A DNA stretch of 28,759 nt, from contig NIVC01005003.1 of assembly GCA_002269645.1 (NCBI GenBank), positions 1-28,759 of the forward strand. Direction: 5' to 3'. The translations under genes and the position numbers were made by a program. Shown piece by piece: positions 1 through 17,683 of the stretch (positions within the stretch are counted from its first letter, which is position 1; every line of letters begins with the position of its first letter). The notes beneath the pieces were generated by a model. That model searched no databases. It was not told the DNA's origin and worked only from the letters and a program-made list of their open reading frames with translations. The stretch is from Macrostomum lignano. Lineage: Eukaryota.

Positions 1-2368
1 AAGGGGGTCGCACCTGCTCCAAAAACCTCCTCGCATAATCCCATTAAATCCATCCATATTATCCCTGACAGAATCAGAAAAAAAGGGGTCGCACCTGCTC
101 CAAAAACGTCCTCCATAATCCCATTAAATCCATCCATATTATCCCTGACAGAATCAGAAAAAAAGGGGGGTCGCACCTGCTCCAAAAACGTCCTCCATAA
201 TCCCATTAAATCCATCCATATTATCCCTGACAGAATCAGAAAAAAGGGGGTCGCACCTGCTCCAAAAACCTCCTCCATAATCCCATTAAATCCATCCATA
301 TTATCCCTGACAGAATCAGAAAAAAAGGGGGGTCGCACCTGCTCCAAAAACGTCCTCCATAATCCCATTAAATCCATCCATATTATCCCTGACAGAATCA
401 GAAAAAAAGGGGGGTCGCACCTGCTCCAAAAAACCTCCTCCATAATCCATTAAATCCATCCATATTATCCCTGACAGAATCAGAAAAAAGGGGGGTCGCA
501 CCTGCTCCAAAAACGTCCTCCATAATCCCATTAAATCCATCCATATTATCCCTGACAGAATCAGAAAAAAAGGGGGGTCGCACCTGCTCCAAAAACCTCC
601 TCCATAATCCCATTAAATCCATCCATATTATCCCTGACAGAATCAGAAAAAAAGGGGGGTCGCACTGCTCCAAAAACCTCCTCCATAATCCCATTAAATC
701 CATCCATATTATCCCTGACAGAATCAGAAAAAAAAGGGGGTCGCACCTGCTCCAAAAAACGTCCTCCATAATCCCATTAAATCCATCCATATTATCCCTG
801 ACAGAATCAGAAAAAAAGGGGGGTCGCACTGCTCCAAAACCTCCTCCATAATCCCATTAAATCCATCCATATTATCCCTGACAGAATCAGAAAAAAAGGG
901 GGGTCGCACCTGCTCCAAAAACCTCCTCCATAATCCATTAAATCCATCCATATTATCCCTGACAGAATCAGAAAAAAGGGGGGTCGCACTGCTCCAAAAA
1001 CCTCCTCCATATCCCATTAAATCCATCCATATTATCCCTGACAGAATCAGAAAAAAAGGGGGGGGTCGCACCTGCTCCAAAAACGTCCTCCATAATCCCA
1101 TTAAATCCATCCATATTATCCCTGACAGAATCAGAAAAAAAGGGGGGTCGCACCTGCTCCAAAAACGTCCTCCATAATCCCATTAAATCCATCCATATTA
1201 TCCCTGACAGAATCAGAAAAAAAGGGGGGTCGCACCTGCTCCAAAAACGTCCTCCATAATCCCATTAAATCCATCCATATTATCCCTGACAGAATCAGAA
1301 AAAAAGGGGGTCGCACCTGCTCCAAAAACCTCCTCCATAATCCCATTAAATCCATCCATATTATCCCTGACAGAATCAGAAAAAAGGGGGTCGCACCTGC
1401 TCCAAAAACCTCCTCCATAATCCCATTAAATCCATCCATATTATCCCTGACAGAATCAGAAAAAAAGGGGGGTCGCACCTGCTCCAAAACGTCCTCCATA
1501 ATCCCATTAAATCCATCCATATTATCCCTGACAGAATCAGAAAAAAGGGGGGTCGCACCTGCTCCAAAAACGTCCTCCATAATCCCATTAAATCCATCCA
1601 TATTATCCCTGACAGAATCAGAAAAAAAGGGGGGTCGCACCTGCTCCAAAAACGTCCTCCATAATCCATTAAATCCATCCATATTATCCCTGACAGAATC
1701 AGAAAAAAAGGGGGGTCGCACCTGCTCCAAAAACGTCCTCCATAATCCCATTAAATCCATCCATATTATCCCTGACAGAATCAGAAAAAAAGGGGGTCGC
1801 ACTGCTCCAAAACGTCCTCCATAATCCCATTAAATCCATCCATATTATCCCTGACAGAATCAGAAAAAAAGGGGGGTCGCACTCGCTCCGAAAACGTCCT
1901 CCATAATCCATTAAATCCATCCATATTATCCCTGACAGAATCAGAAAAAAAGGGGGGTCGCACCTGCTCCAAAACGTCCTCCATAATCCCCTAAATCCAT
2001 CCATATTATCCCTGACAGAATCAGAAAAAAGGGGGGTCGCACCTGCTCCAAAAACGTCCTCCATAATCCCATTAAATCCATCCATATTATCCCTGACAGA
2101 ATCAGAAAAAAAGGGGGTCGCACCTGCTCCAAAAACGTCCTCCATAATCCATTAAATCCATCCATATTATCCCTGACAGAATCAGAAAAAAAGGGGGGTC
2201 GCACCTGCTCCAAAAACGTCCTCCATAATCCCATTAAATCCATCCATATTATCCCTGACAGAATCAGAAAAAAAGGGGGGTCGCACTCGCTCACAAAACG
2301 TCCTCCATAATTCCATTAAATCCATCCATATTATCCCTGACAGAATCAGAGCATTATCCCTGACAGAA
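1..2368. repeat. Left terminal inverted repeat: about 29 or more tandem copies of an ~82-bp unit
   Basis: Unit TCGCACCTGCTCCAAAAAC(G/C)TCCTCCATAATCCCATTAAATCCATCCATATTATCCCTGACAGAATCAGA(A)n(G)n, with homopolymer length jitter. It is the reverse complement of the 16676..17645 array. Confidence 0.97.
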
Positions 2369-2482
2369 AGAAAAGAAACAAAGACTCATTATATTTTATT
2401 TAAGATTTAAGATTATATTTTATTTTCGTAAAGGTGTTTTATGTTTACTAACAAACGACGACTGCAGAATCTTAAATCGAAA

Positions 2483-3050
2483 CTAATTTATTTGATGACT
2501 TTCAATCGCTCTCTCCATTGCCACATTTGTTTGCAATTGATCGATCGTCTTGGATGTTATCGCACGACACTCTGGACATGTTATACTATTTTCTGCCGCA
2601 TTGTACAAAGTTTGGACACATCTCAAGCAGAACGAATGCGGGCAGTCCAGCTTCCTAGAAGGCGAAAGCCAGTTGTAGCACACTGGGCATTCGCATCCAC
2701 GCGGGATGTTTTCCCTCTCGCGGCTCTCCAACTCCTTCTCTTTAATTTGAATCTTTTCCTTTAGGTCTTTAACCACCTTCAAATAGTAATAAATGAAACA
2801 ATGCCATGATTAATGATAAAAAAGTACCCAGAAATACACAGAAAACACAAATTTCGAGTCTTACCTGCACTGATTTAAAAAATTCCGTATTTCTCTGAAG
2901 TGAACTTTCATTCCACACTATATATATAGTCTCTAGCGGACAGGTTTTGAGGTCGCTATCAGCGTGCAACGCGGTTGTCACATTTTGTGCAGTCCGTAGT
3001 TTTGACTTAAGATTTTGCAGTCGCCGTTTATCAGTAGCAGTTGAGGGCAT
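2483..3050 (-). CDS. C3HC4 RING-finger protein, probably single-pass transmembrane; split by a frameshift near 2797
   Basis: ORF 2483..2782 has CPVC-x11-CPHSFC-x2-C-x12-CPEC after a charged coiled coil. The upstream ORF 2769..3050 ends in a hydrophobic run. Removing one base near 2797 joins them as ...ICVFCVFLGTFLSLIMALFIYYYLKVVKDLKEK... The RING is secure; the fusion is inferred. Confidence 0.75.
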
Positions 3051-3318
3051 ATGTGGGGAGAAGCAGCCCGAGTGTTTCTGTGTTTGCTTAAATATAGCTA
3101 GCCGTAGAAAATTCTAGAAAATTCCAGACTGTACAATCTTGGAGTCAAGCAGGGAAAACAATCGATATAGCTCAGTGTACGATAGAGCATGAGGCGTGTG
3201 AATGTGAGGGGTGAGACTTCTCTATAGACAAAGCATAGGGTGAGGAGGCGAGGAGCATGAAGGAGAAGCATGGTGGAAAGAGAGATTGTAGCCGAAACCA
3301 GTGTGCTCAAGACTGTAC

Positions 3319-3444
3319 ACTTGTGTGGAGAAAAGCGAAGCGAAGGCCAAAAGGCCAGTTTGCGATAAAATTTGGCCTTACTCGAGGCCAAAATCCTTTG
3401 CGTTCTGGCCTTTTGGCCTTCGCTTCTTTTCGCTCCACACAAGT
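3319..3444. other. 126-nt imperfect palindrome (long hairpin/cruciform)
   Basis: Arms 3319..3358 (ACTTGTGTGGAG..GAAGCGAAGGCCAAAAGGCCAG) and 3405..3444 are near-perfect reverse complements. There is an inner stem TTTGGCCT-tactcg-AGGCCAAA at 3371..3392. Confidence 0.9.
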
Positions 3445-16225: not shown

Positions 16226-16229
16226 GAAA

Positions 16230-16469
16230 TCACAATTGCCTAATGATTTCTGCAAAGTTATAGTAGCTGTCATAATCTTTTACATAGGTTACTCCATACT
16301 TATGAAACCAATGTCTTTGGAGAGCTTGATTAATATTAGGGACATTGATTTGAACGTCGGGCCAATATTTTCTCATGTATTCGCTGCATTCAAGTTTGCA
16401 TCGGTACTTACTCTTGTAATTAGGCTCGTGCGTTTTGTAATAAGAACCTGGAGAGACAACTGGAAACAT
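16230..16469 (-). CDS. Small orphan protein (79 aa, Tyr/Lys-rich)
   Basis: ATG preceded by CAATAAAA like the other element genes. Its stop is 4 nt from the penton stop. No recognisable family. Confidence 0.5.
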   Translation of the reverse strand: MFPVVSPGSYYKTHEPNYKSKYRCKLECSEYMRKYWPDVQINVPNINQALQRHWFHKYGVTYVKDYDSYYNFAEIIRQL

Positions 16470-16675
16470 TTTTATTGAAAATTTAATTTTTTTCAAAGGG
16501 TAAGGACCCTGCGCTGATGATTTAAAGTCTTAGGGATCTGGTTTCACGTTGCGGATTGAATGTGGGGAGAAGAATGCAGATTATTTTCTGATTGTTTCGA
16601 AGATGCTATGGGTGGATGTCAGTGGATTATGTCAGTGTCAGTGAGCATAACAGGTGTCCTACTGTTATGCTCTGA

Positions 16676-17683
16676 TTCTGTCAGGGATAATGCTCTGATT
16701 CTGTCAGGGATAATATGGATGGATTTAATGGAATTATGGAGGACGTTTTGTGAGCGAGTGCGACCCCCTTTTTTTCTGATTCTGTCAGGGATAATATGGA
16801 TGGATTTAATGGGATTATGGAGGACGTTTTTGGAGCAGGTGCGACCCCCTTTTTTTCTGATTCTGTCAGGGATAATATGGATGGATTTAATGGGATTATG
16901 GAGGACGTTTTTGGAGCAGGTGCGACCCCCCTTTTTTTCTGATTCTGTCAGGGATAATATGGATGGATTTAATGGGATTATGGAGGAGGTTTTTGGAGCA
17001 GGTGCGACCCCCCTTTTTTTCTGATTCTGTCAGGGATAATATGGATGGATTTAATGGGATTATGGAGGACGTTTTTGGAGCAGGTGCGACCCCCCTTTTT
17101 TTCTGATTCTGTCAGGGATAATATGGATGGATTTAATGGGATTATGGAGGAGGTTTTTGGAGCAGGTGCGACCCCCCTTTTTTTCTGATTCTGTCAGGGA
17201 TAATATGGATGGATTTAATGGGATTATGGAGGAGGTTTTTGGAGCAGGTGCGACCCCCCTTTTTTTCTGATTCTGTCAGGGATAATATGGATGGATTTAA
17301 TGGGATTATGGAGGACGTTTTTGGAGCAGGTGCGACCCCCCTTTTTTTCTGATTCTGTCAGGGATAATATGGATGGATTTAATGGGATTATGGAGGAGGT
17401 TTTTGGAGCAGGTGCGACCCCCCTTTTTTTCTGATTCTGTCAGGGATAATATGGATGGATTTAATGGGATTATGGAGGACGTTTTTGGAGCAGGTGCGAC
17501 CCCCCTTTTTTTCTGATTCTGTCAGGGATAATATGGATGGATTTAATGGGATTATGGAGGACGTTTTTGGAGCAGGTGCGACCCCCTTTTTTTCTGATTC
17601 TGTCAGGGATAATATGGATGGATTTAATGGGATTATGGAGGAGGTGAAAAATTTTGTCCCAGAAGCCCGCCATGCCTTCTACT
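16676..17683. repeat. Right terminal inverted repeat: about 12 copies of the ~82-bp unit plus a 38-bp unique terminus
   Basis: Reverse complement of the left array, including the variant innermost unit (GTGAGCGAGTGCGA vs TCGCACTCGCTCAC) and the short GCATTATCCCTGACAGAA tail. The array stops at 17645. Confidence 0.95.

What the first reader, a model, noticed from the sequence alone, without database searches (positions are those of the whole stretch)
1..17683. Virus-complete Polinton whose TIRs are kilobase arrays of an 82-bp unit
Seen: over 2.3 kb on the left and about 1 kb on the right consist of one ~82-bp unit in inverted orientation, enclosing a 14.3-kb core with all replication, integration and morphogenesis genes. 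Known: Polinton TIRs are usually 0.1-1 kb and can contain short subterminal repeats, but a TIR that is almost wholly a large-unit array is unusual and more like poxvirus/herpesvirus terminal repeats. Inference: the arrays may act as multiplied origins, packaging or protein-binding platforms, or expandable telomere-like ends of the linear genome.
Basis: partly seen in the sequence, partly recalled or inferred. Interest (0 to 1): 0.8.

Follow-up and report, generated by a model that had tools for sequence, protein, structure and literature searches.

The report
Polinton with expandable repeat-array ends
A recently inserted virus-like jumping element in an animal genome has its two ends swollen to 40 and 12 copies of an 82-base repeat, where most of its roughly 200 relatives carry 3-4, and the swelling likely arose while the element copied itself outside the chromosome.

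Summary
The arrays are real and are this Polinton's TIRs. The right end is 17683 (5'-AGTAG, 6-bp TSD ATTGAG). Another contig of the same insertion supplies the left end: 40 units left, 12 right, 18.6 kb in all. Integrase, pPolB, protease, ATPase, major and minor capsid genes are present; integrase, pPolB and major capsid are frameshifted here, at assembly-error level. The 82-mer is not a host satellite, but kilobase arrays are not the family's design. Of about 449 termini, 20 carry 6 or more units; 96 of 104 sampled ends carry 1-4. A sibling about 5 substitutions away has 3/3. The insertion has an empty allele. Expansion is coupled across ends (5 of 8 expanded elements). Both ends share element-private unit variants in unrelated order, and inner units stay fixed. 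Best reading (0.5): reiteration and end-to-end exchange of origin-proximal units during protein-primed replication before insertion. Main rival (0.35): host minisatellite growth after insertion; 4 of 6 neighbouring host arrays differ between alleles. A function for long arrays is unsupported. Precedents exist (unit-built TIRs of PgVV, Galileo, an adenovirus ITR reiteration). New variant of a known kind.

The parts
1..2368 (+). Left TIR, cut by the contig start: about 29 units of the 82-bp repeat plus a 23-bp partial duplication; the whole left TIR has 40 units behind a terminal leader in contig C3826
2483..2809 (-). Accessory RING-finger (C3HC4) frame, 108 aa stop to stop
   Evidence: Pfam PF15227 E 1.5e-7
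3313..3450 (.). 138-nt imperfect palindrome (66-nt arms); relatives of it lie about 0.8-1.4 kb from a terminus in many copies
   Evidence: (z = -11.2)
3455..3904 (-). Parvovirus-type phospholipase A2-like protein, 149 aa
   Evidence: Pfam PF08398 E 7e-14
3936..4971 (+). rve integrase; one frame break in this contig, unbroken (345 aa) in the C3826 assembly of the same insertion
   Evidence: (PF00665 E 2e-8)
5002..5436 (+). Adenovirus pX (mu)-like core protein frame
   Evidence: Pfam PF05829 E 4e-7
5560..9396 (+). [quoted passage not shown]
   Evidence: (PF03175, PF02945)
9430..9831 (+). Adenain-like maturation protease, 133 aa
   Evidence: Pfam PF00770 E 1.6e-4
11361..12161 (-). A32-like packaging ATPase, 266 aa
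   Evidence: Pfam PF04665 E 3.6e-6
14052..15337 (+). Double jelly-roll major capsid protein, broken in this contig; 428 aa in 99.9%-identical sibling DNA
   Evidence: PF21738 E 5e-5, below cut-off; PBCV-1 Vp54, Sputnik and mavirus capsids, E about 2e-9 to 1.5e-8; model pLDDT 54
15362..16225 (+). Minor capsid (penton) protein, 287 aa
   Evidence: pLDDT 75; mavirus penton E 1.3e-9; Sputnik and adenovirus pentons
16676..17639 (-). Right TIR array: 12 units (11.6 by TRF) plus 23-bp partial duplication; same count and same unit order in three contigs
17640..17683 (-). Terminal leader beginning 5'-AGTAG; carries a small change not present in the left leader, seen in three contigs and in a short-read contig
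17684..17689 (+). 6-bp target site duplication ATTGAG; single copy in the empty allele (C1374)

Best explanation
This is a young, polymorphic insertion of a Polinton (adintovirus-type) whose family TIR normally holds 3-4 copies of an 82-bp unit behind a short terminal leader, and whose outer units were likely reiterated to 40 and 12 during rounds of protein-primed, strand-displacement replication of the free linear genome before integration. SHOWN: the TIR anatomy; the family norm; copy-specific expansion; fixed inner units with expansion of the outer ones; coupling of the two ends; private unit variants shared by both ends in unrelated order; an empty allele. INFERRED: strands started at either terminal origin come off within the repeat zone and re-anneal out of register, on the same end or on the identical opposite end (directly or through the TIR panhandle of a displaced strand). 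Each event would add one or two units and mix variants between ends, and the integrase then fixes the product with a 6-bp TSD. The long arrays would be a tolerated by-product that records replication history, not an adaptation. The 3-4-unit core may be a functional protein-binding zone beside the origin (untested).
For: (1) Coupling: 43 TSD-matched end pairs give Spearman 0.61, P 1e-5. Of 8 TSD-matched elements with an end of 6 or more units, 5 have both ends that long (40/12, 18/34, 9/24, 11/7, 6/6), against a base rate near 20 of 449 ends; binomial P about 2e-5 computed as 5 of 9, counting one element with unmatched flanks. Three cross-contig pairs were validated by empty sites that join their flanks. 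(2) End-to-end traffic: one unit variant occurs only in the two ends of one insertion (4 units in C67, 10 in C1830; 0 in the other 144 of 146 ends, 629 units in all). Those two ends have inner units of different subfamily types, and only the C1830 inner unit bears the variant. Own-partner unit distances are 0.4-1.4 against a cross-element mean of 3.2. (3) Inheritance: two separate insertions (C1802, C4049) share a run of 5 inner units, on opposite sides of their elements. (4) Youth: empty allele with 99.7% and 98.9% flank identity; 1 of 4 runs shows filled and empty junction contigs at equal depth, and the listed contigs of the other 3 run through the empty site; about 5 real substitutions in 14.3 kb from the 3/3 sibling. 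(5) Many small steps: the two-class order in the left array has 22 runs in 38. Single-unit slippage from a 2-3-unit founder never gave this in simulation, blocks of mean 4 or more gave P 0.03 or less, and independent draws fit at P 0.13. (6) Expansion is not tied to repeat-rich neighbourhoods (flank tandem cover median 0.145 in 13 flanks against 0.149 in 19, P 0.85). (7) The family shows other replication-type products: TSD-flanked inverted duplications of the capsid arm (C276, C633) and mosaic cores. (8) A reference title reports reiteration of a 40-bp sequence in the ITR of a canine adenovirus.
Against: Host minisatellites beside the insertion are themselves unstable: 4 of 6 differ between filled and empty haplotypes (24-bp 54.6 vs 16.7, 19-bp 40.5 vs 104.4, 4-bp 254 vs 129, 40-bp 21.0 vs 15.1); only the 33-bp and 23-bp arrays are unchanged. 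Left and right orders share no more than chance (longest common run 7, null 6.9, P 0.57), lengths are unequal, and the right leader carries a change the left lacks; full panhandle repair would tend to equalise ends. No second insertion carrying this element's long array was found among the 20 long termini. Two-unit block duplication from a short founder is only marginally disfavoured (P 0.03-0.07), and two other long arrays (C1830, C2715) show block repetition (P 0.006 and 0.015). Expanded ends have near-identical first two units (median 1 difference against 7 in short arrays), which alone could make both ends unstable in the chromosome. No free linear DNA was observed, and pPolB is unbroken in 0 of 39 copies as assembled.
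Confidence: 0.5

Rival explanations
1. The element inserted with a short TIR, and each end then grew in the host germline as a minisatellite (sister-chromatid slippage or exchange), with occasional gene conversion between the two TIRs of the same copy explaining shared variants.
For: 4 of 6 neighbouring host arrays differ up to about threefold between haplotypes. Left and right differ in length and order. Expanded ends have near-identical adjacent units. Expansions are scattered on a tree of 55 capsid modules. Block repetition occurs in two arrays.
Against: The haplotypes differ by about 1-3% next to the site, whereas the element differs from its 3/3 sibling by about 0.035%, so some 20-40 small events must fit into a far shorter time. 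Both ends are long in 5 of 8 expanded elements. Two insertions share a 5-unit inner run. There is no link to flank repeat density. The 33-bp array 590 bp away has 16.8-16.9 copies in filled, empty and 95%-identical paralogous sites.
Confidence: 0.35
2. Long arrays are an adaptive architecture: multiplied origins, packaging or protein-binding platforms, or telomere-like buffers.
For: Every sampled end but one keeps at least one unit, and most keep 3-4, so the short array may matter. Expansions are commonest among the copies most similar to the window's.
Against: About 95% of termini have fewer than 6 units. The 3/3 sibling and a second 3/3 young insertion integrated equally well. Only the outermost leader has the AGTAG terminus. 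The unit forms no hairpin (z = +2.7). No long-array lineage has spread.
Confidence: 0.08
3. Array length is an artefact of noisy long-read assembly or polishing.
For: The assembly has about 0.2-0.3% indel error (46 indel columns between two contigs of the same insertion). One of 29 left units differs in type between the window and C3826.
Against: Three contigs give 12 right units with identical variant order. The left order agrees at 28 of 29 positions between two contigs. Each expanded element has its own variant alphabet. The contigs may share reads, so they are not fully independent.
Confidence: 0.04
4. The 82-mer is a genome-wide host satellite into which, or beside which, the element happened to fall.
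For: The host region is rich in tandem repeats.
Against: There are only 587 exact motif matches against 449 terminal leaders. The first 100 listed matches fall at element ends. Of 6 clusters lacking an exact leader, 5 were fetched and all 5 sit at variant termini; 1 (C273:138396) was not checked. The empty allele has no unit at the site.
Confidence: 0.01

Closest known systems
Animal Polintons/Mavericks; Alpha adintoviruses (PMC8502044, passages read; PMC8097293, passages read)
   Same: rve integrase, pPolB of Pfam PF03175 type, adenain, A32 ATPase, double jelly-roll major capsid, penton, PLA2-like and pX-like genes, 5'-AG termini, 6-bp TSD; family median length 16.1 kb and median TIR about 690 bp, within 46-1,447 bp reported for 134 intact vertebrate elements.
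   Different: About half of the family TIR is a tandem 82-bp array that is copy-number variable. This copy's left TIR (3.3 kb) exceeds that range and is unequal to the right one. PLA2 and pX lie in separate frames here rather than fused as PLA2X. The word 'tandem' does not occur in the main text of PMC8502044 and occurs only in a reference of PMC8097293.
Polinton-like virus PgVV-14T/16T (bioRxiv 10.1101/2022.07.28.501842; passages and Extended Data Fig. 1 legend read, figure not seen)
   Same: TIRs subdivided into near-identical units, with small variants among units and differences between isolates and ends.
   Different: A helper-dependent virus of an alga. The legend gives no 10-40-fold reiteration and no population of copies; unit sizes were not visible to me.
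Adenovirus ITR reiteration (Sira et al. 1987, PMID 3037784; title only, seen in the reference list of PMC9131638; further cases recalled, not checked)
   Same: Multiple reiteration of a short unit inside the inverted terminal repeat of a related protein-primed linear genome.
   Different: Non-integrating virus, 40-bp unit; the paper was not held, so mechanism and end coupling could not be compared.
Foldback-like TIRs of Galileo (PMC3573991; abstract and section 7 read)
   Same: TIRs with internal tandem repeats that expand and contract, recruit inner sequence and exchange among copies.
   Different: Cut-and-paste P-superfamily transposon with no replicating phase; 0-3 repeats and TIRs up to about 1.26 kb.
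Endogenous mavirus-like elements (PMC8547959; passages read)
   Same: Kilobase TIRs (0.2-2.3 kb); TIRs regenerated after truncation.
   Different: Protist virophages; 'tandem' does not occur in the main text.

Membership tests
Polinton/Maverick | [quoted passage not shown] | tested here: met
   PF03175 on two pieces (E 4.5e-6, above cut-off; E 4.8e-5, below); broken into 7 frames as assembled
Polinton/Maverick | Retroviral-type (rve) integrase | tested here: met
   PF00665 E 2e-8, above cut-off
Polinton/Maverick | TIRs with 5'-AG...CT-3' termini | tested here: met
   AGTAG termini at both ends of the insertion
Polinton/Maverick | 6-bp target site duplication | tested here: met
   ATTGAG at both ends and once in the empty allele; 35 elements held whole have matched 6-mers
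Polinton/Maverick | Packaging ATPase and adenain-like protease | tested here: met
   PF04665 and PF00770 above cut-off
Polintovirus/adintovirus | Double jelly-roll major capsid and single jelly-roll penton | tested here: met
   Foldseek against PDB; the major-capsid model (from a sibling copy) is low-confidence, pLDDT 54
Alpha adintovirus | PF03175-type PolB with N-terminal OTU domain | tested here: inconclusive
   PF03175 met; no Pfam OTU hit on the N-terminal frames; no profile-profile or structural test made
Alpha adintovirus | PLA2-like accessory gene with C-terminal pX (PLA2X) | tested here: inconclusive
   PLA2 and pX are both present but in separate frames 1.1 kb apart
Alpha adintovirus | Phylogenetic placement of PolB and capsid with Mayetiola-class references | not tested
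   No reference set was at hand; homologue hits were unnamed
Polintovirus/adintovirus | Free linear genomes or virions | not testable with these tools
   Only contigs of public runs were available
Host satellite DNA | Arrays independent of a mobile element's ends | tested here: not met
   487 of 587 motif matches were not listed
Foldback-type cut-and-paste transposon | P- or MULE-type transposase with internally repetitive TIRs | tested here: not met
   Internally repetitive TIRs are present, but the core encodes rve integrase, pPolB and capsid genes

The most novel reading that the evidence does not exclude
The arrays are a fossil record of many rounds of extrachromosomal, protein-primed replication of an animal Polinton: origin-proximal units are added one or two at a time and swapped between the two ends, so the variant order in each TIR is a barcode of the element's free, virus-like phase just before each integration.
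Probability: 0.45. Interest if true: 0.65.

Novelty: new variant of a known kind. Interest (0 to 1): 0.45.

Why it matters
Whether animal Polintons replicate as free linear genomes, and how their ends are kept, rests largely on gene content. A family of about 225 copies that is still inserting, with unit-coded TIRs that vary from 1 to 40 units, gives a read-out that long reads can test directly: free genomes should carry long, heterogeneous, end-mixed arrays, whereas a host minisatellite process should show allelic series at single loci. Either answer is useful; the second would show Polinton ends seeding host minisatellites. It also warns that consensus libraries and short-read assemblies hide TIR variation of this size.

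Tried and rejected
Relatives with flanking DNA outside this genome: none confirmed in viral contigs or metagenome contigs, so TIR design in other species was not seen. Homologue searches gave 9 major-capsid and 13 penton relatives on contigs under 4 kb, without context. A PDB sequence search of the capsid gave nothing; the Atlas search of the penton gave unnamed viral clusters only. Hairpin-driven slippage of the unit was rejected. A repeat-unstable neighbourhood was not supported. Mirror-image order of left and right arrays was not found. The idea that the rarer junction letter is injected from the leader at each addition remains a lead only: it is present in all 5 insertions with an end of 9 or more units, but also in ends whose leader has another letter, and in short arrays 5 of 44 against 6 of 74. 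My first control, a stable 33-bp host array next door, was weakened when four further host arrays proved variable. Empty-site searches were uninformative for the GGCCCG insertion's age (it lies in a repeat), found nothing for C106, and found a 94%-identical site for ATGCCC that may be allele or paralogue. Sequencing runs: no RNA holder listed; contigs cannot give array length or free ends. Earlier scan notes: none. Papers not held: six look-ups, including the original Polinton description, so its statements on TIR substructure are unchecked. Repbase was not available. Ten literature searches listed no paper whose title or abstract start describes copy-number-variable tandem arrays in animal Polinton TIRs; the library lacks most subscription journals. 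Supplements were not read; TIR tables in PMC8097293, PMC8547959 and PMC12220804, and the closed bioRxiv supplements, may bear on novelty.
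Full report
OBSERVATION. Tandem Repeats Finder confirms an 82-bp array at 3-2350 (28.9 copies, 96% matches) and its reverse complement at 16694-17642 (11.6 copies, 98%). The inverted homology ends inside at 2368 and 16676, after a 23-bp partial duplication, leaving a 14.3-kb core. The right end is 17683, reading 5'-AGTAG inward, followed by ATTGAG. The window is contig C5003 of a 764-Mb assembly. Contig C3826 holds the same insertion whole, with ATTGAG on both sides, 40 units left, 12 right and 18,597 bp in all. 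A third contig, C1526, repeats the right end with 12 units. The order of the two unit classes is identical on the right in all three contigs and agrees at 28 of 29 left positions between two.

GENES. Pfam identifies a RING finger, a PLA2-like protein, rve integrase, a pX-like protein, pPolB with an endonuclease VII-like segment, adenain and an A32 ATPase. Predicted folds match the 287-aa protein to mavirus, Sputnik and adenovirus pentons (best E 1.3e-9, pLDDT 75). A 428-aa frame from a 99.9%-identical sibling matches double jelly-roll capsids (best E 1.8e-9, pLDDT 54). In the window, integrase and major capsid are broken and pPolB lies in 7 frames. Two contigs of the same insertion differ by 46 indel columns and 18 substitutions in 14.3 kb, and the integrase is unbroken in C3826, so these breaks are at the level of assembly error. 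Among fetched full-length copies, unbroken frames are: integrase 26 of 59, major capsid 34 of 55, penton 47 of 63, ATPase 35 of 59, protease 33 of 61, pPolB 0 of 39. At this error rate a 3.8-kb frame is not expected to survive (inference), so whether pPolB is intact in the organism is open.

THE FAMILY. An exact piece of the terminal leader occurs 449 times and an exact 31-nt piece of the unit 587 times; only the first 100 places of each were listed. The listed unit matches sit at element ends. Of six clusters with no exact leader, five were fetched and all five lie at variant termini; one was not checked. The 82-mer is therefore a TIR component of a family of about 225 insertions (haplotype duplicates included), not a host satellite. 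On contigs C1-C716, 104 ends carry 1-18 units: 96 have 1-4 and 6 have 6 or more; one end with no unit was dropped. A genome-wide anchored pattern finds 20 termini with about 6 or more units, four of them assemblies of this one insertion (its leader pattern is slightly shorter than that, so 20 of 449 is approximate). For 35 TSD-matched elements held whole, the median length is 16.1 kb, the median TIR about 690 bp and the array about half of it. The closest sibling, C106, has 3 units at each end and differs from the window at 10 sites, 5 of which are also different in C3826, leaving about 5 real substitutions. On a tree of 55 capsid modules, long arrays are scattered, and the window's nearest neighbours have 3 units (cores are mosaic). 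Kilobase arrays are thus a recurring, copy-specific state.

AGE. The right flank matches C1374, where left and right flanks join over a single ATTGAG (99.7% and 98.9% identity), and a 95% paralogue that is also empty. In four public runs laid as contigs, X2 has one contig across the filled junction (no differences, depth 14.8) and one leaving at the site (depth 15.1). The listed contigs of X1, X3 and X10 run on past the site with non-element letters (the table was cut, and X2 may be the assembly's source). The insertion is polymorphic.

PATTERN OF EXPANSION. C106 reads: one outer unit, one inner unit, one partial unit. The window's insertion keeps the same two inner units and multiplies the outer one, in two classes that differ by one letter. 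Across 43 TSD-matched pairs, end lengths correlate (Spearman 0.61, P 1e-5; 24 equal, 34 within one). The sample was enriched for long ends, and a few cross-contig 6-mer matches may be chance. Expanded pairs are 40/12, 18/34, 9/24, 11/7, 6/6, 4/7, 8/2 and 6/3; empty sites confirm the 18/34, 9/24 and 11/7 pairings. Each expanded element uses its own small set of unit variants at both ends, but the order is unrelated between ends (P 0.36-0.88). In the 18/34 element a variant found in no other of 146 ends occurs in both arrays. The two arms have inner units of different subfamily types, and only one inner unit bears the variant, which points to unit traffic between ends. Two separate insertions share a five-unit inner run on opposite sides. 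The left order here (22 runs in 38) cannot come from single-unit slippage of a 2-3-unit founder, is unlikely from blocks of 4 or more, is marginal for blocks of about 2, and fits independent draws. The unit does not fold (z = +2.7). Flank repeat density does not predict expansion.

RESULTS AGAINST. The host 33-bp array 590 bp away is unchanged in filled, empty and paralogous sites, and so is a 23-bp array. Four other arrays differ strongly between the filled and empty haplotypes, so this host does turn minisatellites over. The haplotypes are about 1-3% apart near the site, far more than the element is from its sibling, but array differences may be saturated, so this sets no upper rate. The ends are unequal, the right leader has its own change, two other long arrays show block repetition, and no second insertion with this element's long array was found.

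MECHANISM. From established knowledge of adenovirus-type replication (recalled): protein-primed polymerases start at either terminus, displace one strand, and the displaced strand re-forms an origin by pairing its TIRs. With tandem units just inside the origin, a young strand that comes off can re-anneal one or more units out of register, at either end. Repeated over many rounds, this would lengthen the outer array, spare the inner units, mix variants between ends and scramble their order; integration would then fix one product. TSD-flanked inverted duplications of the capsid arm (C276, C633) look like copy-back products of such replication (inference). I give this 0.5, host minisatellite growth with TIR-to-TIR conversion 0.35, an adaptive role for long arrays 0.08, artefact 0.04 and host satellite 0.01. 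The first two can act in sequence.

COMPARISON. The element meets every tested Polinton criterion and resembles Alpha adintoviruses (PF03175-type PolB, PLA2-like gene); the OTU domain and phylogenetic placement are unsettled. Reported TIRs are 46-1,447 bp in vertebrate Mavericks, 100-1,500 bp in a nematode survey's introduction and 0.2-2.3 kb in mavirus-like elements. Unit-built TIRs with variants are shown for PgVV (figure legend only), variable tandem repeats in TIRs for Galileo, and ITR reiteration for a canine adenovirus (title only). I also saw passages of the coral preprint, PMC12220804 and PMC6431247; none of those passages describes repeat arrays inside TIRs. Ten searches listed nothing on variable tandem arrays in animal Polinton TIRs, but the original descriptions and Repbase could not be read.

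VERDICT. Observation confirmed, interpretation partly supported. The interest lies less in one odd TIR than in a still-inserting Polinton family whose ends vary from 1 to 40 units in a coupled, variant-coded way that makes its replication mode testable. New variant of a known kind; interest 0.45.

Noticed in passing
window 3313-3450: Strong imperfect palindrome (-54 kcal/mol, z = -11.2). 38 related sites were found in fetched DNA, many about 0.8-1.4 kb from a terminus, some at both ends of one copy. Possibly part of the ancestral TIR boundary; function unknown.
   Followed up: partly
window 2369-3450 and 16232-16675: The window's subfamily has lost the roughly 400-bp unique inner TIR segment from its left end and carries a RING-finger region there instead, so even its 3/3 members have a TIR that is nearly all array.
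   Followed up: partly
G000:C276:289398-300645 and G000:C633:134497-147606: TSD-flanked elements with the capsid arm at both ends in inverted orientation (arms 99.8-99.9% alike over 1.5 kb tested), resembling copy-back defective genomes.
   Followed up: partly
G000:C28:361599-364044, C544:473028-476600, C124:22982-23697: Short internally deleted derivatives (2.4 kb and 3.6 kb with matched TSD; about 0.7 kb with two termini).
   Followed up: no
L049-L050, L017, L040, L076 and others: A second capsid-module type, about 75-78% identical to the window's, is recombined onto the same polymerase-integrase arm in 9 of 55 copies.
   Followed up: partly
window 18273-28754: Six host tandem arrays (33, 24, 40, 4, 19 and 23 bp); four differ up to about threefold in copy number from the empty haplotype C1374.
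   Followed up: yes
window 27700-28074 (+): Open frame ending near an FKWM motif, which I recall as the hexapeptide of Hox1/labial-type first exons; no Pfam hit. The insertion may lie about 10 kb from a homeobox gene.
   Followed up: no
window 19451-20101 (-): 216-aa Ala/Ser/Thr-rich frame with a C-terminal hydrophobic stretch, possibly a host membrane-protein exon; no Pfam hit.
   Followed up: no
window 12200-12367 and 10816-10969: Internal 21-bp (8 copies) and 84-bp (1.8 copies) repeats inside the element core.
   Followed up: no
G000:C1623, C1624, C2980, C2981: Four ends whose leader lacks the usual AGTAG start and begins with a different sequence; may be a truncated or variant terminus.
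   Followed up: no
G000:C106:768558-768702 and 783552-783696: The 3/3 sibling is flanked by a 145-bp direct repeat, within a local tandem repeat.
   Followed up: no
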